DNA of 44,504 nt from a phage. Numbering within the stretch: the first letter of the stretch is position 1; every line of letters starts with the position of its first letter. The notes under the pieces are model-generated. The model was not told where the DNA came from. It did no database searches and saw nothing but the letters and a program-made list of their open reading frames with translations. Shown piece by piece: positions 2,083 to 37,676 of the stretch. The DNA lies in the sequence record PZ386946.1; one strand, given 5' to 3'. A program made the position numbers and the translations under genes.

Positions 2083-3336
2083 ATGGTTAAGACAGACAGC
2101 TACGCCAATATCTTTCTAGGCGGTAGTGATGGTAGTGAGATTTACGGAAGTTTACAGAATCAGGATCCTACAATCCTGTCTTCTCTTTATGCGAATAATG
2201 CACTGGTGCGTAGAATTATCGATACAATCCCGGAAACAGCATTAGCGGCAGGATTCTACATTGATGGTATTGATGATGAGCCTGCATTCTGGTCGCGCTG
2301 GGATGATTTTGAGATGACTCGGAATATTAACGACGCCTGGTCGTGGGCGAGATTATTCGGTGGTTCTGCCATTGTAGCTATCGTTAAGGACAATAGGGCG
2401 CTAACGAGTCCGGTAAGAGAAGGTGCAGAACTTGAAACTGTCCGTGTTTACGACCGCACGCAAGTAAAAGTACAAACTCGCGAGGAGAACCCACGCAACG
2501 CGCGATTTGGTAAGCCGCTAACCTATCGTATCACCACAAACGAAAGCGATATGTTCTACGATGTGCACTACAGCCGCATTCACATCATTGACGGAGAGCG
2601 AATTCCTAACGTAATGCGTAGGCAGAATGATGGCTGGGGCCGCAGCGTTCTATCAAGTGACATTCTTGACTCAATTAAGGATTACACCAACTGCGAACGA
2701 CTGGCTACGCAGTTACTGAAGCGCAAGCAGCAAGCAGTGTGGAAGGCGAAAGGTCTGGCTGAGTTATGTGATGATAGCGAAGGATTTGGTGCCGCTAGAT
2801 TACGACTTGCACAGGTTGATAACAATAGCGGCGTGGGTCAGGCGATTGGTATTGACGCAGAATCTGAAGAATACAGTGTTCTTAACTCTGATATTGGTGG
2901 TATTGATGCGTTTCTGGATAAGAAGTTTGACAGAATCGTCGCACTGAGCGGTATTCATGAAATCATCCTGAAGAACAAGAACGTCGGCGGCGTATCCTCA
3001 AGCCAGAATACAGCACTAGAGACATTTCACAAGCTGGTTGACCGCAAGCGCAACTCTGAGTTGCTTCCTATTCTTGAGTTCTTAATACCGTTCATTGTTA
3101 ACGTTGACGAATGGTCAGTTGAGTTTAATCCTCTGGCACAGGAATCAAGCAAGGACAAAGCGGAGATTCTGGAGAAGAACGTAAGCAGCATTGCTACACT
3201 AATTGCATCTGGCGCTATGGATACTAACGAGGCACGTGATACACTGCGAACTATCGCACCAGAGATTAAGATTGGTGATGGTGATATTGAATCTCAACAA
3301 CAAGAACCAGTAGAGGAGGCTGTAATTAATGAGTAA
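2083..3336 (+). CDS. portal protein (putative)
   Basis: about 417 aa ORF immediately after terminase; track start 2071 is TTG, ATG 2083 has GGAG 6 nt upstream; assignment by position and size. Confidence 0.65.
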   Translation: MVKTDSYANIFLGGSDGSEIYGSLQNQDPTILSSLYANNALVRRIIDTIPETALAAGFYIDGIDDEPAFWSRWDDFEMTRNINDAWSWARLFGGSAIVAIVKDNRALTSPVREGAELETVRVYDRTQVKVQTREENPRNARFGKPLTYRITTNESDMFYDVHYSRIHIIDGERIPNVMRRQNDGWGRSVLSSDILDSIKDYTNCERLATQLLKRKQQAVWKAKGLAELCDDSEGFGAARLRLAQVDNNSGVGQAIGIDAESEEYSVLNSDIGGIDAFLDKKFDRIVALSGIHEIILKNKNVGGVSSSQNTALETFHKLVDRKRNSELLPILEFLIPFIVNVDEWSVEFNPLAQESSKDKAEILEKNVSSIATLIASGAMDTNEARDTLRTIAPEIKIGDGDIESQQQEPVEEAVINE

Positions 3337-4414
3337 AATCCGCTATGACAGCGCAAAGTTTAAGGCAACAATCGACGAGAATGGATTCTTAGTCGACACT
3401 CCAGTGGTCGCACGTCTCGGTGTGCAGGTCTACTACATGGATGACGGCCGCACTGTCCGAGAGTTTCGCCCAGCGGAGGAGGTTTTCAAGGATGAATCTC
3501 TAGCCAGCTACCAGGGTAAGCCAATGACTCTTGACCATGTTTTCGTTAACTCAGAGAACGCTAAAGAGGTAGTAGTTGGCTCAGTTGCTGGAAAGGCAGA
3601 GCCATTAGGCAGCTCCGTGGTTGCTCCAATTGTTATTTACGATAACACAGCCATTAAGGAAGCTATGGCAGGTAACGCAAAGGAGTTATCCGTTGGATAC
3701 TCATCAGTTATTGATTACACCCCAGGTTGGGGTGACCCTGTTACTGGTGAGTACTTCCTTAAGTCTGAAAGTGAGCTATTCGACGTACCAGAAGGATGGC
3801 AGGAGTTCGACGCAATTCAGCGTGACATTAAAGTGAATCATCTCGCAATGGTATATCGCGGTCGCGCAGGTATTGCCAAATTGAATATGGACGGTGAGCA
3901 GGAAAACCCGTATACTACTGACGTTGATATCAATAAAGAGGATAAACAGGAAATGATTAAGATTAAACTCGACGGCGCGCAGGAATTCGAAGTCGCCCCG
4001 GAAATCGCTTCTCACATCGAAGCACTGAACGCAAAGGCTGACACTGCAATCGCAGAGCGTGATGCACTGAAAGCAAAAGTAGATGCAATGCCTTCTGAAA
4101 TCGAAGCTGCAGTTGCTAAAGCGAAAGCTGACGCTGATGCTCTTGCTGCTCTGGTAGCTGTTGCTGCTGAAGCTGGTGTAAAGGCTGATGGCCTGGATGC
4201 TAAAGGCATTAAAGTTGCCTACGTTAAAGAAATCTCCGGCCTTGATGTTAGTGAGAAATCTGATGCGTACATCGACGCGGCGTTCGACATTGCCAAAGAA
4301 TCTGATAAAATGGCTGAAGTACGTAAAGCGACTACCGCTTCCGACAAATCTGACAGCGCCGATGAGCCTAAGAAATTAGACCCACGTGCTCGTTTAGCTA
4401 AAATTAAGAAATAA
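3329..4414 (+). CDS. head morphogenesis protein (putative prohead protease/scaffold-like)
   Basis: 361 aa; overlaps portal stop; C-terminal Ala/Lys/Glu-rich predicted coiled coil typical of scaffolding proteins; function inferred from position. Confidence 0.45.
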   Translation: MSKIRYDSAKFKATIDENGFLVDTPVVARLGVQVYYMDDGRTVREFRPAEEVFKDESLASYQGKPMTLDHVFVNSENAKEVVVGSVAGKAEPLGSSVVAPIVIYDNTAIKEAMAGNAKELSVGYSSVIDYTPGWGDPVTGEYFLKSESELFDVPEGWQEFDAIQRDIKVNHLAMVYRGRAGIAKLNMDGEQENPYTTDVDINKEDKQEMIKIKLDGAQEFEVAPEIASHIEALNAKADTAIAERDALKAKVDAMPSEIEAAVAKAKADADALAALVAVAAEAGVKADGLDAKGIKVAYVKEISGLDVSEKSDAYIDAAFDIAKESDKMAEVRKATTASDKSDSADEPKKLDPRARLAKIKK

Positions 4415-7990: not shown

Positions 7991-8647
7991 ATGGCTCATT
8001 TATCAAACGGCACCCAGGTGTTCGTAGAAGGCTCTCGCGGAACTGCAATTGACGTAACTGCAATTTCCAACGCAGCTACCCCTGTTTTAACTGTATCTGA
8101 AGGATCCGGCCTGGCTAAGGGTGACTACCTTCTGTTTACTGCCTCCAGCTCAACTCTCCTGAGCGACAAACAGGTGCGAGTAACTGAAGTTTCTGGCACT
8201 TCGGTAACAGTTGAGGGAATTGACACAACCAATACCACAAAGTTCCCGGCTGGTTTAACTGGTGAAGTTGTTAAAATTACCTCATGGTTCGAGGTTCCGT
8301 GTGTTCAGGACGTATCTACTGACGGCGGCGAGCAGCAATTCGTTAACTTCCAATGCTTGTCAGATGACCGCGAGCAGCAGATTCCAACTTACAAGTCTGC
8401 GGTAACGAATACCTTCACCTTCGCTCATGAGTACACTAACCCGGTTTATCCTGTTCTGCGTAACTACGATGAGTCAGGCCAGGTTGTTGCTATTCGTCTG
8501 TTTGTACCTCGCGCTCAGGAAATGCGTTTGCAGTCCGGCACTATCGCTTTCAACGACACACCTACCATTGGCGTTAACGAAATCGAAACGGTATCCATCG
8601 CAGTATCAATTCGTGGTCGACTGTCCTCTGTGGCAGCAGAAGTTTAA
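7991..8647 (+). CDS. major tail protein (putative)
   Basis: 218 aa ORF followed by strong hairpin terminator 8653..8678; position upstream of chaperone and tape measure. Confidence 0.6.
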   Translation: MAHLSNGTQVFVEGSRGTAIDVTAISNAATPVLTVSEGSGLAKGDYLLFTASSSTLLSDKQVRVTEVSGTSVTVEGIDTTNTTKFPAGLTGEVVKITSWFEVPCVQDVSTDGGEQQFVNFQCLSDDREQQIPTYKSAVTNTFTFAHEYTNPVYPVLRNYDESGQVVAIRLFVPRAQEMRLQSGTIAFNDTPTIGVNEIETVSIAVSIRGRLSSVAAEV

Positions 8648-8680: not shown

Positions 8681-8724
8681 ATGGCACTTTTTGCTAAAGC
8701 GTTTATCCAGCTTTACTGTATAGT
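8681..8724 (+). promoter_or_regulatory. bipartite motif copy (variant ATGGCACTTTTTGCTAAAG ... TATAGT)
   Basis: variant first half, conserved TATAGTTACTTCATAGAAACGA second half. Confidence 0.4.
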
Positions 8725-8757: not shown

Positions 8758-9006
8758 ATGAATGACGTTAAAAACATCATCAAGTTTGCTGCAGTTCTGG
8801 TTGCTTTTTATGCAGCAGTTCAGATTGTTAACCCAACTGGAGAGGCGGATGCAAATAGCAAGGCAAACAAATATACTGTTGAATTTGCCAAGGCTGAGCG
8901 AGCATGTCAGGATCTTGTGGGTGGTAAGGTTGACCAAATCATGAAATATGGCAAAGAGGTCTGCAAGGACTCAGCTGCTAAGATTGCAAAAGAAAACACT
9001 AAGTAA
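8758..9006 (+). CDS. small secreted/membrane protein (moron-like)
   Basis: 82 aa; N-terminal hydrophobic segment FAAVLVAFYAAVQIV consistent with signal peptide or anchor; own copy of the bipartite motif upstream. Confidence 0.45.
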   Translation: MNDVKNIIKFAAVLVAFYAAVQIVNPTGEADANSKANKYTVEFAKAERACQDLVGGKVDQIMKYGKEVCKDSAAKIAKENTK

Positions 9007-14644: not shown

Positions 14645-15197
14645 CATTAAGTTAGGCTTGTCTCTAGGCCGTAAGTTTGGAAAGATTCACCAGATGGCGG
14701 TGAATAGCGTTCCCGAAGCTATGCGAGCACTATGCTCTCAGATTCCTGCCTTTAAGGAGTTTATGAATAGCCACGTAGGGCAGAACGCAAGGTACGCAAT
14801 TTTCGTTGATGGAAAAAATGTGAACGAGCATCGAATCTCTGATTTTAGTGCCGTTCAGGAGATACGCATCTTGCCAATCCCCCAGGGTCGCAAGTCCGGC
14901 GGCTTGTTTCAGACAATTTTAGGTGCCGCTCTTATCACGGTTGGCATCTTTACTGGTCAGATTTACCTTGTTGGAGCTGGTATCTCGCTGGCAGCTGGCG
15001 GCGTAGCTCAGTTGCTTTCACCTCAAGCTACTGGGTTGAAAGACCAGAGTAACCAGACAAGCAATAGAGCCTCTTACGCATTTGGCTCAGCCGTGAACAC
15101 GGTAGCAGCTGGCTATCCAGTATGCCTTCCATATGGTTACAGGACGGTTGGCGGCTCGGTATTTTCTGCCGGCAGCTACGCCGAAGACAATGCTTAA
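14625..15197 (+). CDS. tail assembly protein (lambda I-like)
   Basis: 190 aa, overlaps K-like gene end, hydrophobic C-terminal region; gene order. Confidence 0.65.
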   Translation: MTQKLIDIKLGLSLGRKFGKIHQMAVNSVPEAMRALCSQIPAFKEFMNSHVGQNARYAIFVDGKNVNEHRISDFSAVQEIRILPIPQGRKSGGLFQTILGAALITVGIFTGQIYLVGAGISLAAGGVAQLLSPQATGLKDQSNQTSNRASYAFGSAVNTVAAGYPVCLPYGYRTVGGSVFSAGSYAEDNA

Positions 15198-18681: not shown

Positions 18682-18990
18682 ATGGCTGAGTATGGAATTG
18701 CAACATATGATGCAAATGGTAATTACAATAACTATGGGATTAAGCCTGTTAGTGTTGTTGGTTTTGATTTTCTTTCAGCTGGCAACAATAGCTACTCATT
18801 TAGCTATAATATCCCAGTTGGTACAAAGGTTGGATTCACCATAAGTCTTGATGATGGGGCGATATCTGGACCAGCAAGGAGAATAGTGGCAAGTGGGAAC
18901 ACAATAACGATAACACCAACATCAACACCAGGACCTGGTGTTTACCCATCATCAAATTGCTACCTCATAGCTTATCTGGAGAATCAATAA
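18682..18990 (+). CDS. hypothetical tail-associated protein
   Basis: ATG 18682 with GGAG RBS (track start TTG 18670); N-terminus MAEYGIATYDANGN shared with next ORF. Confidence 0.5.
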   Translation: MAEYGIATYDANGNYNNYGIKPVSVVGFDFLSAGNNSYSFSYNIPVGTKVGFTISLDDGAISGPARRIVASGNTITITPTSTPGPGVYPSSNCYLIAYLENQ

Positions 18991-23139: not shown

Positions 23140-23166
23140 GATAAAGCCCCTTTCGGGGCTTTTTTG
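23140..23166. terminator. bidirectional hairpin terminator between SSB and tail fibre genes
   Basis: AAAGCCCC-TTTC-GGGGCTTTTTTGTT, A-run and T-run on either side. Confidence 0.65.
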
Positions 23167-25764
23167 TTACGGCCTCATGAATCTAATTACAGCCTGACCA
23201 GACACACTAACTTTAGATGTGTTGTGATTAACTAAGAATACGTTAACACTACCAGTCCCGCCACCAGCCCTGGATGCAAATATATCAATACCACTAAGTC
23301 CAGAACTAACATCCACGTTTATGAAATCACCATACTTAACGCCAGGGACGCTAACTGTTCCTAGAAATGACATTCCACCATTAGCTGCAAGTGTAACAGT
23401 GTAGTCAATATATGAAGGCTTTGAGAATCCATTAATGAAAACAGATCCATTAACAAGCCCGCCAACATCACAGTTACTTGTGTAATCTATTCTGCTATCA
23501 GCGGATGCAGAGAGCGAGTAAGAGTACTGCGATCCAGAGACTACAGGTAGGTTGCTTGCGCTAACCCTTACATTTGACCCTGAATTTGCAAGCACTACAT
23601 AAGAGTTTGCTCCATCACTAATAACATCAGAACTTCCACCAGAAACAAAACCAGATAAGTTGACTCCTGAAATATCAACGTCTGAGTTTGTGAATCTAAA
23701 AAGATAAGCCTCCTGTCCTTGCGGGTTTTGGTTTCTCCATGACGGTATCGAAAACCCTGAAATCTTTGCTGAATTGCAGTCAACAAGAACAAAGTCTGAT
23801 CCGCCATTAATATTAACCTTTGATGATTCATGCTGCATTCCAGTTATCGTCAACCCAGGGCACTGAGTTGCAATAAACGGCGTTAAGTTTCCAAAATTAG
23901 AGCTGCCATCGTACGCGCAGTTCACCAAAGTAGCTACGTGACAGTACTTTAGCGCCCAGGACGCATAACAATCAAGTGAGTAGCACGATGAGTACTTAAC
24001 GGTTGTCCCGTAGTCTTTCCTAAAGCCCTGAATGCAATCCCACGCCCAGCAATTAACATACTCCATCAAATAAGCTGACGTCACATCGTAGAATCCATAG
24101 TAGGCACCTCTTACTATTACATTCTCAACCTTAAAGTTTGTAACTCCACCTGTAAGAGGGTCAATTAAAGAATCTCTGGTTCCAAAATCAATGCCGCGAC
24201 TAAAACCACTATTTACCGTTGGCTTACCAGTCTGATAGTTAATCCAAAAATTAGCTATTGACCCACCTGGTTGATACCCCGTCGGGAAGTGCTCAAATCC
24301 AGAGTGATCACCAGTACATTGTATAATTGTTCCGTATTTTGAATTTGGGTAGGTTGATGCCCCTCTTATGTTTTGAGTTCCGAAAAGTATTGGCCCACTA
24401 GTCAAAATTACACCTGGAGGAAAAGTCACATCCTGAAGCGTCGATGTTGCTCTGTTTGCTGCCGCGGTGTCATCACTTACACCGTCAGCTTTCACTCCAA
24501 ACCATCTAGCATCAACTGGACCCGTGTAGCTTCTCTTCCATCTTCTATCCAATGCGTCAACAAGAATAGTACCATCATTGTCCTCGCTAGATGTGTCTGA
24601 ATCATCTCTCTGGAATATACCGAAAGCATTATCTGCGATCGTCTCTCTTCCGTAACAACTAATGGAATAATCAGAACCCGAATAACCCCTTATGTCGCTA
24701 TAGTTTGCCGAACCTATTTTTGATAGTGAAGACACTCCTCCAAGATCGGCTTTTGAGTAAACGTCAAGATTAATTCTCGCAGCTTCTTTATTTGGGATGT
24801 CGCTAAGGTTGGAAGACCTCAGAAAGGTTTCACCCTTCGAGTAAACATCAAGCAACCCCCTAACCCTCAAGGCGCTAGAACCACCAGTAGCACCATCTCC
24901 ACCAGGAACGCTTAGAAGTTCCCTTACATAAAAATTCCTAGAACCAGTAGCTCCAGTAAAGGTAATTTCCGCAACCCTAAAAACTGCGTTTGAGGTTGTA
25001 GAAGGAGAAATTCTTACTACGTTACTTCCATTAATACCACGCGTTGCAAGAACATCAATACAAATAGTGGTGTTTGTCGCCGGGAACATTGAACTCAAGT
25101 CTGCCGGAATGTTAACCATGTTGTCAATTCTGCACTGGTAACTACCACCTGAATAAAATTGCATTGTCTGCCAATCAAGAGATGTTAAAAGTGGAGTTGT
25201 TGTGCTTCCTATACCGTGTTCTGCAAAGTAAGCCACTGCGGCGGTATTCCCGGCTGCATTTATTGCGGCAACGGTTCTGTTGTATGAGTTCTGTGCATTA
25301 TTGCTAGCACCAACGGCAGTTGATGCGCTTTCTGCGGCAGCAACCTGACTAGCAAGCGCCTCCGCAGCTCCAGTGGTGGATTGATTTGCAAGTTGCTCGA
25401 ATCTAGGCCAGTCGAAAGTGTCTTGACTAATAAATTGCAGCAATCCTTCGATGGATGTCTCCTTAGACTGGTAGTAACGCAAAGTCTCTGCTACATTCTG
25501 AGCTAAACCCTGAACGGTAATCCCATCGTGAGCAAGGATCGCATAACCAGTTCCTGCAGGAACAGTTTCAGAATTAGGGTTATAAACATTAATCTGCGTA
25601 TCGCTGATGATTTCTGAGATGGTGTAAATCTTCAGGGGGCTTGTTTTAAAAATAATGGTTGCACCTACACGAATCAGTGTAAGCGGTGCTTTCCATGTTG
25701 TTCCGACCCCAGTCACCTCGCCATTTGCGGCTAGCGACGCTGTTCCTAAGTCATAAATTGCCAT
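23167..25764 (-). CDS. tail fibre / tailspike-like protein with pectate-lyase-like beta-helix domain
   Basis: 865 aa from ATG 25764 (track start 25794 is GTG inside motif); Gly/Ser/Thr/Asn-rich; motif ARWFGVKADGVSDDTAAAN typical of start of right-handed beta-helix domains. Confidence 0.7.
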   Translation of the reverse strand: MAIYDLGTASLAANGEVTGVGTTWKAPLTLIRVGATIIFKTSPLKIYTISEIISDTQINVYNPNSETVPAGTGYAILAHDGITVQGLAQNVAETLRYYQSKETSIEGLLQFISQDTFDWPRFEQLANQSTTGAAEALASQVAAAESASTAVGASNNAQNSYNRTVAAINAAGNTAAVAYFAEHGIGSTTTPLLTSLDWQTMQFYSGGSYQCRIDNMVNIPADLSSMFPATNTTICIDVLATRGINGSNVVRISPSTTSNAVFRVAEITFTGATGSRNFYVRELLSVPGGDGATGGSSALRVRGLLDVYSKGETFLRSSNLSDIPNKEAARINLDVYSKADLGGVSSLSKIGSANYSDIRGYSGSDYSISCYGRETIADNAFGIFQRDDSDTSSEDNDGTILVDALDRRWKRSYTGPVDARWFGVKADGVSDDTAAANRATSTLQDVTFPPGVILTSGPILFGTQNIRGASTYPNSKYGTIIQCTGDHSGFEHFPTGYQPGGSIANFWINYQTGKPTVNSGFSRGIDFGTRDSLIDPLTGGVTNFKVENVIVRGAYYGFYDVTSAYLMEYVNCWAWDCIQGFRKDYGTTVKYSSCYSLDCYASWALKYCHVATLVNCAYDGSSNFGNLTPFIATQCPGLTITGMQHESSKVNINGGSDFVLVDCNSAKISGFSIPSWRNQNPQGQEAYLFRFTNSDVDISGVNLSGFVSGGSSDVISDGANSYVVLANSGSNVRVSASNLPVVSGSQYSYSLSASADSRIDYTSNCDVGGLVNGSVFINGFSKPSYIDYTVTLAANGGMSFLGTVSVPGVKYGDFINVDVSSGLSGIDIFASRAGGGTGSVNVFLVNHNTSKVSVSGQAVIRFMRP

Positions 25765-25786
25765 TGCGTAAAGTCTCCATTTGTAA

Positions 25787-25805
25787 AATAGCACGAATTG
25801 CTAAG
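25787..25805 (+). promoter_or_regulatory. bipartite motif first half, orphan copy in plus orientation between two minus-strand genes
   Basis: AATAGCACGAATTGCTAAG then 24 nt then TATAAA; no plus-strand gene downstream. Confidence 0.3.
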
Positions 25806-25823
25806 TTTGATTGTAGCATCTTT

Positions 25824-25854
25824 CAGGTATAAAAAAACCTCCCGAAGGAGGTTA
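25824..25854 (-). terminator. rho-independent terminator after primase gene (minus strand)
   Basis: hairpin CCTCC-CGAA-GGAGG followed on minus strand by TTTTTTTATAC. Confidence 0.55.
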
Positions 25855-26775
25855 GTCTAGTAATTCACTTGCTTTGTATATTCGTTTTCTTATTCCTGAC
25901 TTAAAAAAATTATCATCATTTGGCATTACCACATCAAGATCGCGATCGTCAGCAACGGCGAGTAAATCAAAAGCGTGGCGAGTACAAGCGACGCGTAACT
26001 TGTAGTTTCTAAGCGCGTAAGCAACCATTTCCATGTTGTAACTGGAGTGGCAAACAAGCACACAGCGGTTACCTGTAGCAATGTGAACGCGATAGCCGTC
26101 AATGAAATTATCGACCAGATAAGCGTACTCATCATCTTTAAAGGAACCAATAACAGCAATAGACTGGCGAGTATAATCTTTTGCAGCATAACTAACATCT
26201 CCCTCTTCATTGATAAACATTACATTGCACATTTCTTCTGATATACCATCACTATAGGCCATAAAACAAGGCACTGCGTGTATTAGTTCGCCTGATTTTG
26301 CCCTGCCAACATCAAAACCAAACTCACTATAGATACCCTCGTATATACTGAGTGGAGTTGATGCTACTCTTTCCGTCCTTTCCATTATCTCTAAGCATCT
26401 TTCGTGGTCAATCTGTGCTCCCATTTTATAGAGCTGGGTTCTTGATGCTTTCTTGTTTGCCTTATTAACCACTTCTACAGGGATAAGGTTTAACCACTCA
26501 CCGAGAATATCAATGCATTCACTGAATGACTCCCCTCTCATCTTTTGAACCCAGACAATTCCATCTCCCGAGCCGCACTGGTTGCAGATAATGCCACCGT
26601 CACCCTCCTCGCTAACCTTATTGGTCCATCTTGCGCGATCGTTGCCGCCGCAATAAATGCACGGCTGATGCTTCTTAGTCTGGAAGAACTTTGGGTCAGC
26701 GCCGCAGATATTGATAAGCGCCTTGTCCCACAGGCCCCGCATTCTTGGTAAAACCTCTTTCTTATCGTAGTGCAT
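25852..26775 (-). CDS. DNA primase (zinc finger + TOPRIM-like)
   Basis: 307 aa; N-terminal CIYCGG...CNQCGSG zinc-binding motif; acidic DxD block AVADDRDLDVV consistent with TOPRIM. Confidence 0.7.
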   Translation of the reverse strand: MHYDKKEVLPRMRGLWDKALINICGADPKFFQTKKHQPCIYCGGNDRARWTNKVSEEGDGGIICNQCGSGDGIVWVQKMRGESFSECIDILGEWLNLIPVEVVNKANKKASRTQLYKMGAQIDHERCLEIMERTERVASTPLSIYEGIYSEFGFDVGRAKSGELIHAVPCFMAYSDGISEEMCNVMFINEEGDVSYAAKDYTRQSIAVIGSFKDDEYAYLVDNFIDGYRVHIATGNRCVLVCHSSYNMEMVAYALRNYKLRVACTRHAFDLLAVADDRDLDVVMPNDDNFFKSGIRKRIYKASELLD

Positions 26776-26832: not shown

Positions 26833-27306
26833 TTACTCTTTAGCTTTTCGTGCTGCCTCATTGGCGGCTTTAATTTTGCGCCAGGATCGGCACTCAGGCT
26901 TAGTAGCCAGCTCAGCTTCTGTTACCACGCGCAGCATATGACGCTTTTTGCATCGCAGCGTAAGCGGCTTTCCGTTGCCATCGAATTGCAGATCCGGTCG
27001 GCAGAATGTGGCTCGAAAACCTTCTCCATTTCTTTTGTAGTAGTTGTGTGACAGCTGAGCTCCACGTGCAGAAATCATACCACGCTTAAACCATTCTTCT
27101 ACAGCCTGAGGAGTTACCTTTAACTGCTTCGCAATGTTTGCCTTTGTGCCGAAGAAATCAAGAACCATCTCTAGCCGTGCGCGTAGCCCGGCTCTTACTT
27201 CATCTTTTAAAACGTAGTAACCTGAAGGTCGTTTTCGTTGTTTTTTGTCTTCAGTGCGGACGGTTCCGTTATTGCCGTTAATGGTGCGCTTGTCAACTGC
27301 ATTCAT
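26833..27306 (-). CDS. HTH DNA-binding protein (putative transcriptional regulator)
   Basis: start ATG 27306 with GAGGT RBS (track start 27342); helix-turn-helix-like IAKQLKVTPQAVEEWFKRG; basic termini. Confidence 0.5.
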   Translation of the reverse strand: MNAVDKRTINGNNGTVRTEDKKQRKRPSGYYVLKDEVRAGLRARLEMVLDFFGTKANIAKQLKVTPQAVEEWFKRGMISARGAQLSHNYYKRNGEGFRATFCRPDLQFDGNGKPLTLRCKKRHMLRVVTEAELATKPECRSWRKIKAANEAARKAKE

Positions 27307-27407
27307 TTCATTACCTCGATAGCATTTTTTGTTAAAAGTCATTCTGATTTGATGGTAGTATTGTACTCAATTAAACGCTACAAGACAATTTTTATAGGAA
27401 TTTAGAT

Positions 27408-29402
27408 ATGTTGCCTATCGAGAAGCTGATTGCCAACTTCGATAAAGAAAGAATCAAACAGATCCAGAAGGATTACCAGTTTGGCGAGATAACCCCTTAC
27501 GAGTTCCAGTGCGTTACATTTGATGCAATTGGGAAGGCTATTGGCAAGTATGAGGCTCCATTTATCGCGGACCTCTCCGTGTCTGCTGGTAAGACAATCA
27601 TTCTTGCTATGATTGGTAAGCGCATGGAGCAGCTTGGGCTTCCTTATATGGTTCTTTCTCGACAGTCAGAGATAATCAGCCAGAACTCAGAAGAGCTTCG
27701 TAATTTCGGCATCCGTAACAGCGTGTATTGCGCTGGTCTTAACGTTAAATCAGTTTACTACCCAACTATAGTGGCCAGTGAGGGTACAGCGGCTAATGGC
27801 TTGTTTAAGGGGCTTGGTGACTATGTCCCTGCCGTTATCGCTATCGATGAGTGCCACATGCTTGATGCTATGGATATCGTGGAAGCCGAGGAGAACGAAG
27901 AAACATTTGAGCAAATGAGCACAAAGAAAGGAGAGATGGTTTTTAAGGATGGCGTAAATACAGGGTTGCTTGGCACTGGTCGTGCACAGTACACGCTGAT
28001 TATCACCGAGATGAAACGTCGATGCCGCGAGAAGTACGGTCGCGAGCTTCGTATCTTTGGCCTAACTGGTAGCCCGTATCGCAACAACGATCATATCGTC
28101 GTTAGTAACCCAAACATCCGTGGATTCTGGCGAAAGACGGTAATTCAGGTTCCAACCAATTACCTGGTTGATTTGGGATTTGTTGTGCCAACAGTTTACG
28201 GAGAGGTTGGTGATTTGGGTTACGACCTTTCAGAGTTTGCGCCTGACGGAAGCGATGGTGTGAAAGATTTCAGCAAGAAAGAAATGGATGCGATGCAGGA
28301 AAAAATTCATCAAAACCAGTCCATGACTCAAAAGATTATGCAGTTCGCAGCCAAGTTTATGGAAACTCGTAACGCAGCACTAGTAACTTGCTCAGGCAAG
28401 CGGCATTGCGAGGAAGCAGCCGCGTCGCTTCCTGAGGGTGTAACCTGGGCTATAGTAACTGACTCTACCGGTGAGAAAAAGCGTCGTGAGATTCTTTCTG
28501 ACGCAGCTGAAGGTAAGTATAAATTCATCTTTCAGATTGGTTGCCTCACAACCGGCGTGAACGTTCCGCCATGGGACACGTCAATAATTCTTCGCAAGGT
28601 TGGTAGCATCACGTTACTGATTCAGCTTTTGGGGCGAGGTATGCGAATTCTTAAGAAGAGGCATAAGGAAATGGGAATGGTTAAGGATGATCACGTGGTG
28701 CTGGACTTCGCTGGTACTCTTGATGACATGGCGGAATTGTACTTTGACCCAATCATAGAGGAAGTGCAGGACCAGAAATTTAAGTCTTCACGCAAAGGCG
28801 GCGATGAGCCAAGAATATGTCCGGCCTGTAGTTACGAGAACTCTCCTTTTGCTCGTCGTTGCAATAACGTAATTGACGGGAAGCGTTGTGAGCATTTTTT
28901 TACATTTCGCTTATGTGAAGATATAGAGGACCCGCAGACAAAAGTTACTATTAAGAAGGGTTGTGGTGAAAAGAATGATATCGCCGCTAAAAACTGCCGC
29001 TGCTGCGGAGAGATGCTTATTGACCCCAACGCAAAATTGTCTGGAAAGATGTATCGACAAGGTGATTGGTTGAGAGTTTACGGATTCAGCATTGGATTAA
29101 CTAAAAACCAAACTGGAATCGTTGCTCGCTATGAAATCATGTCGCATAGTGGGGATAGGTTTGTTGCTTACGAAACTTTCTTCCCAGAGAGTGACCATCG
29201 AGTTTGCTCTGTTAAGTGGAAGGCATTTTGCCAGGCGCACATCCAGAACAAAACGGAGGCATTTCGCATAGGAAGACTTCGAAACGCCAAAATGATTATG
29301 AATAACGCAAGTCAATTTCGTGAGCCAATGCGCGTGACTCATAGAAAGAACCAGAAGGGGCAGGACATTATTGCAAACAAATCTTTTACTATGGAGGATT
29401 GA
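27408..29402 (+). CDS. SF2 ATP-dependent helicase (DExH) with C-terminal Cys-rich zinc-finger-like region
   Basis: 664 aa; Walker A SAGKT, DExH box IDECHML, C-terminal CPAC...C...CxxC cluster. Confidence 0.8.
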   Translation: MLPIEKLIANFDKERIKQIQKDYQFGEITPYEFQCVTFDAIGKAIGKYEAPFIADLSVSAGKTIILAMIGKRMEQLGLPYMVLSRQSEIISQNSEELRNFGIRNSVYCAGLNVKSVYYPTIVASEGTAANGLFKGLGDYVPAVIAIDECHMLDAMDIVEAEENEETFEQMSTKKGEMVFKDGVNTGLLGTGRAQYTLIITEMKRRCREKYGRELRIFGLTGSPYRNNDHIVVSNPNIRGFWRKTVIQVPTNYLVDLGFVVPTVYGEVGDLGYDLSEFAPDGSDGVKDFSKKEMDAMQEKIHQNQSMTQKIMQFAAKFMETRNAALVTCSGKRHCEEAAASLPEGVTWAIVTDSTGEKKRREILSDAAEGKYKFIFQIGCLTTGVNVPPWDTSIILRKVGSITLLIQLLGRGMRILKKRHKEMGMVKDDHVVLDFAGTLDDMAELYFDPIIEEVQDQKFKSSRKGGDEPRICPACSYENSPFARRCNNVIDGKRCEHFFTFRLCEDIEDPQTKVTIKKGCGEKNDIAAKNCRCCGEMLIDPNAKLSGKMYRQGDWLRVYGFSIGLTKNQTGIVARYEIMSHSGDRFVAYETFFPESDHRVCSVKWKAFCQAHIQNKTEAFRIGRLRNAKMIMNNASQFREPMRVTHRKNQKGQDIIANKSFTMED

Positions 29403-32595: not shown

Positions 32596-32668
32596 TAGCA
32601 CCTTTTGTTAATAAAGCCTCAAAGGATTGAGGCAAAATGAATAAACGATAAAGAGATGAGGAATTGTA

Positions 32669-37629: not shown

Positions 37630-37676
37630 AATATACAGGAAAAGCCCAGAAGGGCTTTAGCAATTTGTGCTATTTA
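37630..37676 (-). promoter_or_regulatory. bipartite motif copy, minus orientation (variant AATAGCACAAATTGCTAAAG)
   Basis: spacer contains hairpin AGCCC-TTCT-GGGCT plus T-run; followed by ATCGAAACGAAACG leader of 37239..37592. Confidence 0.45.

What the first reader, a model, noticed from the sequence alone, without database searches (positions are those of the whole stretch)
23167..25805. Beta-helix tail fibre on the minus strand, with an inverted orphan motif copy just upstream
The fibre gene is separated from the plus-strand tail cluster and embedded among early genes. It carries a pectate-lyase-like signature (ARWFGVKADGVSDDTAAAN), which suggests a polysaccharide-binding or depolymerase fibre. 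Unlike other genes, the motif copy at 25787..25805 is in the opposite orientation relative to this gene and only about 25 nt from its start, pointing into the primase 3' end. This could drive an antisense transcript or reflect a different regulatory logic for late fibre expression.
Basis: partly seen in the sequence, partly recalled or inferred. Interest (0 to 1): 0.4.

Follow-up and report, generated by a model that had tools for sequence, protein, structure and literature searches.

The report
T1-family tailspike gene with reversed repeat
This is the ordinary side tail fibre (a sugar-cutting "tailspike" type) of a T1/Rtp-like coliphage, but its own promoter carries the family's mysterious 19-base repeat backwards, right on the transcription start, which probably switches this one gene the opposite way from the others.

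Summary
The window is a Braunvirinae (Rtp/T1-like, Drexlerviridae) phage. The ORF 23167..25764(-) has its true start at ATG 25764, giving 865 aa. It is the family's lateral tail fibre, with a conserved N-terminal anchor and an exchangeable C-terminal module. A confident AF2 model of that module matches phage beta-helix tailspike depolymerases. Its position between ssb and primase is the family norm.

The motif is the published T1-family repeat (aaATAGCACnnnTTGnTAAAA), whose function is an open question. In the window, 16 other copies lie 19-22 nt (mostly 20) upstream of a -10 hexamer and point at the next gene. The copy at 25787..25805 is the only reversed, module-less one.

This copy lies 5 nt downstream of a conserved extended -10 (TGcTACAAT), so it covers about -2 to +17 of the fibre's own promoter. 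The same layout occurs in 32 of 55 related loci, including T1 and Rtp. There the motif is 97% conserved against 55-63% for its flanks.

No antisense -10 or leader exists, so the antisense-promoter idea is unsupported. My best reading is untested: an operator-like site that gives the fibre promoter the inverse response to the repeat-binding factor.

The parts
23167..25764 (-). Lateral tail fibre / tailspike gene, 865 aa. True start is ATG 25764, not GTG 25794.
   Evidence: PHROG 24092 'tail fiber protein', E 5e-126. Near-identical 865-aa protein P0001. Syntenic with JeanPiccard 'lateral tail fiber protein', Rtp rtp50 and T1 orf26.
25261..25764 (-). N-terminal virion-attachment (anchor) domain, aa 1-168. 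This is the only part conserved across the family.
   Evidence: phmmer E 6e-34 to the N-terminus of PDB 7vyv/7vz3 (Depo32) and 7lzj depolymerases. 46 related loci were found with this domain. BASEL paper S1C.
23170..24749 (-). Exchangeable C-terminal receptor-binding module: neck, right-handed parallel beta-helix and a C-terminal beta-sandwich.
   Evidence: No megablast match in phage records beyond gene position ~aa 338. Homologues carry P22 head-binding (PF09008) or other N-termini. AF2 pLDDT 87.2, pTM 0.80. Foldseek top hits are K2-2 TSP, Kp7 gp52, AM24, CBA120 TSP2, Sf6 and HK620 tailspikes. Best match among sequenced isolates is E. coli phage KM02 at 57.5% aa.
24454..24510 (-). Pectate-lyase-like N-cap signature ARWFGVKADGVSDDTAAAN (aa 419-437).
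   Evidence: for position. Pfam PF12708 aa 420-479, E 8e-4, below the gathering score. PF12708 was precomputed on several homologues.
25775..25778 (-). Shine-Dalgarno GGAG, 10 nt before the ATG.
   Evidence: Sequence. Conserved in relatives. Annotated as RBS in SU57.
25787..25805 (+). T1-family repeat in reverse orientation relative to the fibre gene. It reads TTAGCAATTCGTGCTATT on the gene strand and covers about -2..+17 of the predicted fibre transcript start. Proposed operator-like site.
   Evidence: Present at the same place in 32 of 55 related loci. Major-allele frequency is 0.97 against 0.55 and 0.63 in the flanks.
25810..25818 (-). Extended -10 promoter element TGcTACAAT with no -35: the predicted fibre promoter.
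   Evidence: Conserved as TG(c/a)TA(c/t)A(a/c)T in Rtp-like phages, NBD2 and P817. Replaced by TTGCAA-N17-TGaTAAAAT in T1-like phages.
25831..25853 (-). Rho-independent terminator of the primase gene (AACCTCCTTCGGGAGGTT + T-run), overlapping the primase stop codon.
   Evidence: -9.2 kcal/mol, z -2.55. Annotated as terminator in SU57, CEB_EC3a and ETEP102.
23143..23162 (.). Bidirectional terminator between ssb (+) and the fibre gene (-). It closes the fibre transcription unit.
   Evidence: called on both strands. Sequence.
26833..27306 (-). Candidate repeat-binding regulator, a Cro/cI-type HTH protein of 157 aa. This is a candidate only.
   Evidence: PHROG 2856 'transcriptional regulator', E 1e-84. 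Pfam P22_Cro weak. The T1 homologue is annotated as similar to P22 C2. AF2 pLDDT 86.6; helices 35-93 resemble Xfaso1 and N15 Cro with TMt 0.67-0.74 but E only 0.05-0.3.

Best explanation
The region is the self-contained transcription unit of the lateral tail fibre of an Rtp/T1-like (Drexlerviridae, Braunvirinae) coliphage. The protein has the family's conserved N-terminal anchor fused to a horizontally exchanged tailspike module. That module is a parallel beta-helix of the glycan-depolymerase type and presumably recognises, and perhaps cleaves, an O-antigen or capsule. This identity is close to certain.

The unit is insulated by terminators on both sides. It has its own host-sigma70 promoter, an extended -10 without a -35. 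The family-wide 19-21-nt repeat sits on that promoter's start site in reverse orientation. Everywhere else in the genome the repeat lies exactly about 20 bp upstream of a -10 hexamer at promoters lacking a -35. Its dyad centre is then near -42, the geometry of a class-II / lambda-cI-type activator site.

I infer that one DNA-binding factor recognises all copies. The prime candidate is the Cro/cI-like HTH protein encoded two genes upstream. This factor would switch on the repeat-dependent promoters from -42. When bound at about +9 on the fibre promoter it would act as an operator that blocks or delays fibre transcription. The fibre would then be regulated inversely to the early and middle genes around it.

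Shown: the anatomy, geometry, conservation and fold. Inferred: the start site, the protein binding, its identity and the sign of regulation.
For: Identity of the phage and gene: about 88% nt identity to JulesPiccard, Veterinaerplatzvirus and IME253. Fibre N-terminus matches PHROG 24092 and the PDB Depo32 N-terminus. Synteny with JeanPiccard, Rtp and T1. AF2 plus Foldseek give a tailspike beta-helix. Homologues carry P22 head-binding domains, showing module exchange.

Insulated unit: terminators at 25853..25831(-) and 23143..23162 (both strands).

Promoter: TGcTACAAT lies 5 nt before the motif. T1-like phages have TTGCAA-N17-TGaTAAAAT 6 nt before the same motif.

Repeat geometry: 16 of 16 other window copies have a -10-like hexamer at 19-22 nt, 13 of them at exactly 20. 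In T1, 17 of 23 copies have one at 20-21 nt. The fibre copy has none.

Conservation: 32 of 55 loci and 27 distinct sequences carry the copy. The motif scores 0.97 against 0.55 and 0.63 for its flanks. It is 18/18 identical between the window and T1, although the fibre N-termini are only about 53% identical.

Dyad: TAGCA-N5-TGCTA has half-sites 10 bp apart, which suits an HTH dimer.

A second sigma70 promoter in the same block, TTGTCT-17-TACAAT for the regulator gene, also has the repeat reversed between promoter and SD. TLS shows the same P57/DR11 layout.

Literature: the repeat is known but of unknown function (PMC11447400). The SU57 authors saw only the terminator and doubted the gene is transcribed (PMC7718038).
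Against: There are no transcription start-site, footprint or expression data for any T1-like phage in the library I searched. The start site is predicted only from the -10 position. The generic two-hexamer promoter scan does not call the fibre promoter, because it lacks a -35.

The repeat is not a clean palindrome. In TLS the right half is often TGTTA, and the most conserved parts are ATAGCAC and TAAAA. A symmetric dimer is therefore not guaranteed, and orientation may matter in ways I cannot model.

Repression of a structural gene by the factor that activates the other promoters needs an extra step to release it late, for example titration by replicated genomes. That step is pure conjecture.

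TLS-like phages and another clade manage without the reversed copy.

The regulator's fold match to Cro proteins is weak (E 0.05-0.3), and other HTH proteins exist in these genomes.
Confidence: 0.42

Rival explanations
1. Antisense promoter. The + oriented repeat works like the other copies and fires a transcript into the 3' end of the primase gene. This would modulate primase or interfere with the fibre promoter by convergent or overlapping RNA polymerase binding.
For: The copy is a near-perfect match in + orientation. In this window TATAAA lies 22 nt downstream, and the helicase module may also use a 22-nt spacing. T1 has two other gene-reversed copies that do carry -10-like hexamers near the standard spacing (TAAGAT at N20 and TATACA at N20).
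Against: No hexamer with A at position 2 and T at position 6 lies 15-26 nt downstream, whereas 16 of 16 other copies have one. TATAAA is the terminator's T-run; it reads CATAAA in the aligned relatives that differ there, and T1 has TACCTG at N20. The conserved CATCGAAACGA leader is absent, with a best match of 5 mismatches. No + strand promoter was called, and there is no + strand ORF to serve.
Confidence: 0.1
2. RNA-level element. The motif is transcribed as the first ~18 nt of the fibre mRNA and forms a 5'-terminal hairpin (UAGCA-AUUCG-UGCUA). The hairpin would stabilise the message or tune translation.
For: The motif lies between the predicted start and the SD in all 32 loci. A 5-bp hairpin is predicted, -3.8 kcal/mol, z -2.5 for the 23-mer alone.
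Against: The hairpin is very weak and unremarkable within the 45-nt leader (z 0.12). If transcription starts at the A of TTAGCA, only 4 bp remain. Two independent stem-breaking changes occur without compensation (TTATCA in L009, TTACCA in L024), while the ATAGCAC half stays intact. An RNA role cannot explain why the same sequence occurs in the opposite sense at 16 other sites. No Rfam family matches.
Confidence: 0.12
3. Polar roadblock or insulator ('stoperator'-like). A protein bound to the asymmetric repeat stops RNA polymerase coming from one direction only. The reversed copy would protect the primase/regulator operon from + strand read-through, or mark a boundary, without controlling the fibre promoter.
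For: Kropinski and Misra proposed stoperator-like behaviour because the repeats follow the direction of transcription. The conserved parts of the repeat are asymmetric.
Against: The rigid 20-nt spacing to a -10 at the other copies argues for promoter function rather than roadblocks. A bidirectional terminator at 23143..23162 already stops + strand transcription from entering the fibre gene. The fixed 5-6 nt distance from the fibre -10 in two clades with unrelated promoters points to a relation with that promoter.
Confidence: 0.08
4. Functionless passenger. The copy is a relic of a former + strand module, or it is conserved only because it lies in the homologous 5' flank used for swapping fibre modules.
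For: The 5' end of the gene and the upstream region form the conserved recombination anchor of a hypervariable locus. Two clades lack the copy and still have a promoter there.
Against: Within that flank the motif is far more conserved than its neighbours (0.97 against 0.55 and 0.63). It is identical between T1 and the window while the surrounding intergenic sequence is unalignable.
Confidence: 0.1

Closest known systems
Rtp gp50 (rtp50) and T1 orf26/25: lateral tail fibres of Drexlerviridae
   Same: Same locus (between ssb and primase, opposite strand), same N-terminal anchor domain and same upstream layout: primase terminator, promoter, reversed repeat, SD. Rtp50 is already annotated 'putative tail fiber with beta-helix fold'.
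   Different: The C-terminal ~527 aa are a different allele. There is no near DNA match in about 50,700 phage records. The best isolate match is 57.5% aa, to E. coli phage KM02.
Depo32 (PDB 7VYV/7VZ3), labelled in the PDB as a Klebsiella phage depolymerase targeting K2-serotype K. pneumoniae
   Same: Homologous N-terminal anchor (E 6e-34 over aa 1-168) followed by a beta-helix depolymerase body. It is also recovered by fold search.
   Different: The beta-helix bodies share only about 10-12% identity. Substrate and catalytic residues cannot be transferred.
P22/Sf6/HK620-type tailspike endoglycosidases
   Same: Right-handed parallel beta-helix with a C-terminal beta-sandwich. The closest sequence relatives of the C-terminal module carry the P22 head-binding domain PF09008 (Citrobacter prophage tailspikes, 51-55% identity).
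   Different: The module is attached to a siphovirus through the T1-family anchor instead of the P22 head-binding domain. Enzymatic activity is not shown.
T1-family 21-nt intergenic direct repeat (aaATAGCACnnnTTGnTAAAA; PMC11447400)
   Same: Same sequence (17 of 18 specified/core positions) and intergenic location.
   Different: The published description says the copies run in the direction of transcription, about 76 nt upstream of start codons. This copy is reversed, 22 nt from the ATG, and lacks the -10/leader half of the module.
Lambda cI / P22 C2 at OR (activation from -42 at PRM, repression at PR)
   Same: Proposed logic: one HTH protein activates when its dyad is centred near -42 of a promoter with a poor -35, and represses when its site overlaps the core or start of another promoter. 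A Cro/cI-like HTH gene lies in the same operon block. The regulator's own promoter also carries a reversed site.
   Different: This is a virulent phage with about 17 dispersed sites instead of tandem operators. No binding or regulation data exist. The analogy is functional, not a claim of membership.
Mycobacteriophage L5 stoperators
   Same: Many dispersed asymmetric sites whose orientation correlates with the direction of transcription (idea raised in PMC11447400).
   Different: Here the sites keep an exact 20-nt distance to a -10 hexamer, which stoperators do not need.

Membership tests
Drexlerviridae lateral tail fibre (T1 orf26 / Rtp50 family) | Conserved N-terminal anchor domain | tested here: met
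   phrog_24092 E 5e-126 over aa 1-337. 47 tblastn-confirmed relatives (46 distinct loci) of aa 1-170 in IMG/VR. PDB Depo32 N-terminus E 6e-34.
Drexlerviridae lateral tail fibre (T1 orf26 / Rtp50 family) | Locus between recombination genes (exo/erf/ssb) and primase-regulator-helicase, on the opposite strand to ssb | tested here: met
   Window ORFs and Pfam. Identical order in JeanPiccard, Rtp and T1. BASEL S1C description.
Drexlerviridae lateral tail fibre (T1 orf26 / Rtp50 family) | Hypervariable, exchangeable C-terminus | tested here: met
   Megablast matches stop at about aa 153, 309 or 338 depending on the relative. C-terminal homologues carry other N-termini.
Tailspike depolymerase with pectate-lyase-type parallel beta-helix (Pfam PF12708 / clan) | Right-handed parallel beta-helix fold | tested here: met
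   AF2 pLDDT 87.2, pTM 0.80, all-beta coils. The 50 listed Foldseek PDB hits (83 with E <= 0.001) are tailspikes or beta-helix enzymes, best E 5e-11.
Tailspike depolymerase with pectate-lyase-type parallel beta-helix (Pfam PF12708 / clan) | Pfam PF12708 above gathering score | tested here: not met
   19.7 bits against a cut-off of 27; only the N-cap aa 420-479 matches. Homologues carry precomputed PF12708/PF27114 hits.
Tailspike depolymerase with pectate-lyase-type parallel beta-helix (Pfam PF12708 / clan) | Catalytic acidic residues and glycan-cleaving activity; trimeric assembly | not testable with these tools
   No solved relative is close enough to transfer active-site residues. The conserved N286/Y289/D290 columns (module numbering) are only noted. 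A halo or enzyme assay is needed.
T1-family 21-nt intergenic repeat (PMC11447400) | Consensus aaATAGCACnnnTTGnTAAAA | tested here: met
   AATAGCACGAATTGCTAAG has 1 mismatch in the specified positions.
T1-family 21-nt intergenic repeat (PMC11447400) | Oriented in the direction of transcription of the downstream gene, about 76 nt before its start codon | tested here: not met
   The copy is on the + strand between two minus-strand genes. It is 22 nt from the fibre ATG on the other strand, with no + strand gene downstream.
T1-family 21-nt intergenic repeat (PMC11447400) | Followed at about 20 nt by a -10-like hexamer and a conserved leader (my own definition of the full module) | tested here: not met
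   No hexamer within 15-26 nt; best leader match has 5 mismatches. 16 of 16 other copies have the hexamer.
Operator of a Cro/cI-type regulator overlapping a promoter start | Site overlaps promoter core or start site | tested here: inconclusive
   The motif begins 5 nt (Rtp-like) or 6 nt (T1-like) after a conserved extended -10. The start site is predicted, not mapped.
Operator of a Cro/cI-type regulator overlapping a promoter start | Dyad symmetry with half-sites one helical turn apart | tested here: met
   TAGCA-N5-TGCTA. The dyad is imperfect in T-type copies (TGTTA).
Operator of a Cro/cI-type regulator overlapping a promoter start | Cognate DNA-binding protein binds the site and represses | not testable with these tools
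   There is only a candidate: the HTH protein at 26833..27306.
Sigma54 promoter (TGGCAC-N5-TTGCW) | GG at -24, GC at -12, N5 spacing | tested here: not met
   The motif reads TAGCAC-N3-TTGC, with AG instead of GG and a spacer 2 nt too short (sequence). Rejected.

The most novel reading that the evidence does not exclude
The T1-family repeat is the operator of a single early Cro/cI-like phage regulator that runs the whole temporal programme of these virulent phages. From a dyad centred near -42 it would activate about 16-20 promoters that lack a -35. Through reversed copies placed just downstream of the few true sigma70 promoters (the fibre promoter, and the regulator's own promoter, which shares its -10 base pairs with the divergent helicase promoter) it would repress them. 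The tailspike, a slow-folding beta-helix trimer, would then follow an inverse schedule, either early-on or released by titration. This would answer the published open question of what the 21-base repeats do.
Probability: 0.3. Interest if true: 0.6.

Novelty: new member of a known kind. Interest (0 to 1): 0.35.

Why it matters
The fibre itself is a routine new allele of a known modular receptor-binding protein. It is useful only for host-range prediction or engineering.

The regulatory detail is more interesting. T1-like phages are classic, ubiquitous lab contaminants whose transcriptional programme is still unknown. The function of their 21-base repeats was explicitly listed as an open question in 2024.

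The repeat forms a rigid 'repeat-N20-(-10)' promoter module almost everywhere. It is also conserved backwards on the start site of the fibre promoter, and in the leader of the regulator's promoter. Together these facts give a concrete, cheap-to-test model: one factor that activates from -42 and represses from about +9.

The analysis also identifies the previously overlooked promoter of the tailspike gene. One published annotation had doubted that this gene is transcribed at all.

Tried and rejected
1. Sigma54-like reading of the motif (TGGCAC-N5-TTGC): rejected, because the spacing and the GG dinucleotide are wrong.
2. TTGCTA as a -35 for TATAGT: the spacer would be 22 nt, and no -10 sits at 16-18 nt in the variable spacer. 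Rejected in favour of an activator-site reading.
3. RNA hairpin: the fold is weak (-3.8 kcal/mol) and there are no compensatory changes.
4. Rfam scan of 25600..26000: only chance-level hits far below gathering score.
5. Literature: no start-site or transcriptome study of any Drexlerviridae phage was found. A literal search for the motif sequence was uninformative. The T1 genome paper (PMID 14972552) is not held, so I cannot exclude that it mentions the reversed copy.
6. Looking for the C-terminal module in complete E. coli genomes, to guess the receptor serotype: no blastn match.
7. Regulator identity: sequence search against PDB gives only P22 Cro at E 0.78. NCBIfam gives nothing useful. The fold search supports an all-alpha Cro-like HTH, but weakly.
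8. Co-occurrence of regulator and motif across 46 loci: every locus with the regulator has motif copies, and loci without the primase/regulator synteny have essentially none. This cannot discriminate between candidate binders.
9. A possible extra forward half-site ATAGCAC inside the T1-like fibre promoter spacer: too variable among relatives to count.
Full report
**What the window is.** Megablast of the first 25 kb gives about 88% identity over 83-86% of the query to Escherichia phages JulesPiccard, IME253 and ZL19 and to Veterinaerplatzvirus. The finding's own region hits BEK6, vB_EcoS_FP and JeanPiccard. The window is therefore an essentially complete genome of an Rtp-like member of the Drexlerviridae (subfamily Braunvirinae), the T1 superfamily.

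**The gene.**
- The ORF listing reports 23167..25794(-), 875 aa from GTG.
- The real start is ATG 25764, preceded by GGAG. A 99%-identical metagenomic protein is 865 aa, and the solved Depo32 depolymerase aligns from its own Met1 to MAIYDLG.
- Neighbours:
  - a PD-(D/E)XK exonuclease, ERF and an SSB-like protein on the + strand;
  - a primase (Zn-ribbon) and a Cro-like HTH protein on the minus strand;
  - then a helicase on the + strand.
- The same order, with the fibre on the opposite strand to ssb, is annotated in JeanPiccard ('lateral tail fiber protein'), Rtp (rtp50) and T1 (orf26/25).
- The BASEL paper describes this locus as conserved in position and hypervariable in content, with only the 5' end of the gene shared (PMC8594841).
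- So 'separated from the tail cluster and embedded among early genes' is true, but it is the family norm.

**The protein.**
- Residues 1-168 match the N-terminus of the Klebsiella phage depolymerase Depo32 (PDB 7VYV, 7VZ3) and of depolymerase 7LZJ at E about 6e-34. Residues 1-337 match PHROG 24092 'tail fiber protein' (E 5e-126).
- DNA similarity to other phages ends at about aa 153, 309 or 338 depending on the relative.
- The remaining ~527 aa have no near match among 50,697 phage records. The best protein-level match is 57.5% to E. coli phage KM02. There is no blastn match in complete E. coli genomes.
- In the large protein collection the module recurs at 44-94% identity fused to other N-termini, including the P22 head-binding domain in Citrobacter prophage tailspikes.
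It falls in a sub-threshold PF12708 match.
- An AlphaFold2 model of aa 330-865, built on 21 sequences, is confident (pLDDT 87.2, pTM 0.80) and all-beta.
- Its Foldseek matches are exclusively beta-helix tailspikes and depolymerases: Klebsiella K2-2 TSP, Kp7 gp52, AM24, CBA120 TSP2, Sf6, HK620 and Depo32, with best E 5e-11.
- The beta-helix claim is supported. Enzymatic activity is inferred only.

**The motif.**
- AATAGCACGAATTGCTAAA has 11 matches at <=3 mismatches against 0.01 expected.
- A degenerate scan (ATAGCACnnnTTGnTAAA, <=2 mismatches) gives 17 credible copies.
- This is the published T1-family repeat. Kropinski, Misra and colleagues describe 18 intergenic copies in TLS with consensus aaATAGCACnnnTTGnTAAAA. 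They report the copies as co-directional with transcription and about 76 nt upstream of start codons, and also present in T1, Rtp and Rogue1. They list its function among the open questions about T1-like phages (PMC11447400).
- My alignment of the contexts shows that it is half of a rigid composite module:
  - the repeat;
  - a 20-nt variable spacer (13 copies at 20 nt, 2 at 21, 1 at 19 or 22);
  - a -10-like hexamer, mostly TATAGT;
  - in about half of the copies (8 of 16 within one mismatch), a conserved leader ..CATCGAAACGA;
  - then SD and ATG.
- T1 shows the same spacing at 17 of 23 copies.
- No -35 can be placed. TTGCTA would be 22 nt from the -10.
- With a start about 7 nt after the -10, the dyad TAGCA-N5-TGCTA is centred near -42. 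That is the position from which class-II activators and lambda cI at PRM act (established knowledge; the application here is inference).

**The copy in question.**
- The 25787..25805 copy is the only one in the window that is reversed relative to the gene next to it.
- It is also the only one with no -10-like hexamer 15-26 nt downstream and no leader.
- Read on the gene strand, the 87-nt primase-fibre spacer is:
  - the primase stop overlapping a terminator hairpin plus T-run (25853..25831);
  - 12 nt;
  - TGcTACAAT, an extended -10 without a -35 (25818..25810);
  - CAAAC;
  - TTAGCAATTCGTGCTATT;
  - 8 nt;
  - GGAG;
  - 10 nt;
  - ATG.
- The repeat therefore covers roughly -2 to +17 of the predicted transcript.
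- The other end of the gene abuts a bidirectional terminator (23143..23162). The fibre is thus an insulated monocistronic unit.

**Comparative evidence.** I collected eight GenBank relatives and 46 IMG/VR loci that encode the anchor domain.
- Thirty-two of 55 loci have the reversed repeat between a promoter-like element and the SD.
- In Rtp-like phages, NBD2 (Vilniusvirus) and P817 (Nouzillyvirus) it follows TG(c/a)TA(c/t)A(a/c)T by 5 nt.
- In T1 itself and 13 T1-like contigs it follows a full TTGCAA-N17-TGaTAAAAT promoter by 6 nt.
- Among 27 distinct sequences the major-allele frequency is 0.97 in the motif, against 0.55 in the 30 nt upstream and 0.63 in the 18 nt downstream.
- The motif is 18/18 identical between the window and T1, although the rest of the spacer is unalignable and the anchor domains are only about 53% identical.
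- According to the BASEL phylogeny, Braunvirinae and Tunavirinae lie on the two sides of the family's deepest split.
- TLS-like contigs and another clade have a promoter-like element after the terminator but no repeat.
- The reversed copy is therefore under selection, at a fixed distance from the fibre promoter, in two deep clades.

**Antisense promoter?**
- In this window TATAAA lies 22 nt after the motif on the + strand. It lacks the invariant T at -7 and is simply the terminator's T-run.
- Where the aligned relatives differ at this position it reads CATAAA, and T1 has TACCTG at the standard distance.
- The promoter scan finds nothing on the + strand there, and no + strand ORF follows.
- I rate this reading at about 0.1.
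- It cannot be excluded outright. T1 has two other gene-reversed copies, upstream of the major capsid gene and of the tape-measure chaperone, that do carry -10-like hexamers near the standard spacing.

**RNA hairpin?** The 5-bp stem is worth only -3.8 kcal/mol and is unremarkable within the leader. Two independent stem-breaking substitutions (L009, L024) are not compensated, while the ATAGCAC half is kept. Rfam finds nothing.

**Best mechanism.**
- A single DNA-binding factor recognises all copies. It activates the -35-less modules from -42. It acts as an operator-bound repressor, or timing brake, on the fibre promoter.
- A candidate is the 157-aa HTH protein two genes upstream:
  - PHROG 2856 'transcriptional regulator';
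  - T1 homologue annotated as P22 C2-like;
  - AF2 pLDDT 86.6, with a helical core resembling Xfaso1 and N15 Cro at TMt 0.67-0.74 but weak E-values.
- Supporting circumstantial evidence comes from that gene's own sigma70 promoter, TTGTCT-17-TACAAT at 27388..27360.
  - It has the helicase module's repeat reversed between promoter and SD.
  - Its -10 occupies the same base pairs as the divergent helicase -10.
  - TLS has the same arrangement, P57/DR11.
- Everything from 'binds' onwards is inference. No start-site, footprint or expression data for any T1-like phage were found.

**Novelty and verdict.**
- The fibre is a new allele of a well-known modular protein.
- The repeat is a published element.
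- Three points appear undescribed in the literature I could read:
  - the extended -10 fibre promoter (the SU57 authors noted only the terminator and doubted that the gene is transcribed; PMC7718038);
  - the conserved reversed repeat on its start site;
  - the rigid repeat-N20-(-10) module.
- These are properties of the whole family, visible in T1 and Rtp sequences that have been public for some two decades, not of this window in particular.
- Interest is moderate to low (0.35). The finding is mainly a testable handle on an acknowledged open question.

Noticed in passing
window 27306..27408 (both strands): The regulator gene's sigma70 promoter (TTGTCT-17-TACAAT, 27388..27360, minus) and the divergent helicase module share the same -10 base pairs: TACAAT(A) on minus is TATTGTA on plus. 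The helicase module's repeat (27319..27336, +) lies reversed between the regulator's promoter and its SD. The regulator's true start is probably ATG 27306, not 27342. This looks like a built-in either/or switch with autoregulation. TLS has the same layout (P57/DR11).
   Followed up: partly
window, all repeat copies (e.g. 1563, 29821, 30107, 33683, 37656-, 42095); T1 = L055: The published 21-nt repeat is only half of a rigid module: repeat, exactly 20 nt (rarely 21), a -10-like hexamer (mostly TATAGT), TAC..CATCGAAACGA, SD, ATG. No -35 is present. The spacing puts the repeat's dyad near -42. This holds for 16 of 16 copies in the window and 17 of 23 in T1.
   Followed up: yes
window 42113..42150, 40476..40510; L055 1468..1500, 2287..2320, 3553..3590: In many modules the end of the 20-nt spacer and the bases just after the -10 form an inverted repeat that brackets the -10 hexamer (e.g. 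GGGTAAtttgatatagTTACCC; T1 GGGGTAtcttgctatagtTACCCC). I have no explanation. It would form a hairpin only in read-through RNA or in extruded DNA.
   Followed up: no
window 37637..37655 (-), 41289..41308 (+), 32613..32635 (+): Terminator-like hairpins with T-runs are nested inside the 20-nt spacer between repeat and -10 (gcccttctgggctttt; cccgctccggtgggtttt; agcctcaaaggattgaggc). Termination of the upstream unit and initiation of the next would then overlap within about 40 bp.
   Followed up: no
L055 (T1) 15069..15086(-), 18833..18850(-), 8362..8379(+), 25021..25038(+): T1 has further atypical copies next to late structural genes. Two are reversed: one upstream of the major capsid gene, and one 21 nt before the tape-measure-chaperone ATG. 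Both have -10-like hexamers in the antisense direction. Two forward copies sit 4-16 nt from the terS and J-like start codons without a -10. Late genes may use the repeat differently from early genes.
   Followed up: partly
window 8681..8698 (+): A standard module (ATGGCACTTTTTGCTAAA, N20, TATAGT, CATAGAAACGA) lies inside the late structural cluster. It follows the terminator of the gene that ends at 8647 and drives a small unannotated ORF starting near 8760.
   Followed up: no
window 24750, ~24836, ~25304 (fibre gene): There are three nested recombination breakpoints in the fibre gene. Similarity to BEK6 ends at about aa 338, to FP, JeanPiccard and ES at about aa 309, and to most Rtp-like phages at about aa 153.
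   Followed up: partly
window 25785..25793 (-): On the gene strand the end of the reversed repeat creates a second extended -10-like element (TGcTATTTT) at about +10..+18 of the predicted fibre transcript. It could be a sigma70-dependent proximal pause signal. It is not conserved in T1-like relatives, which read TATTTA.
   Followed up: no
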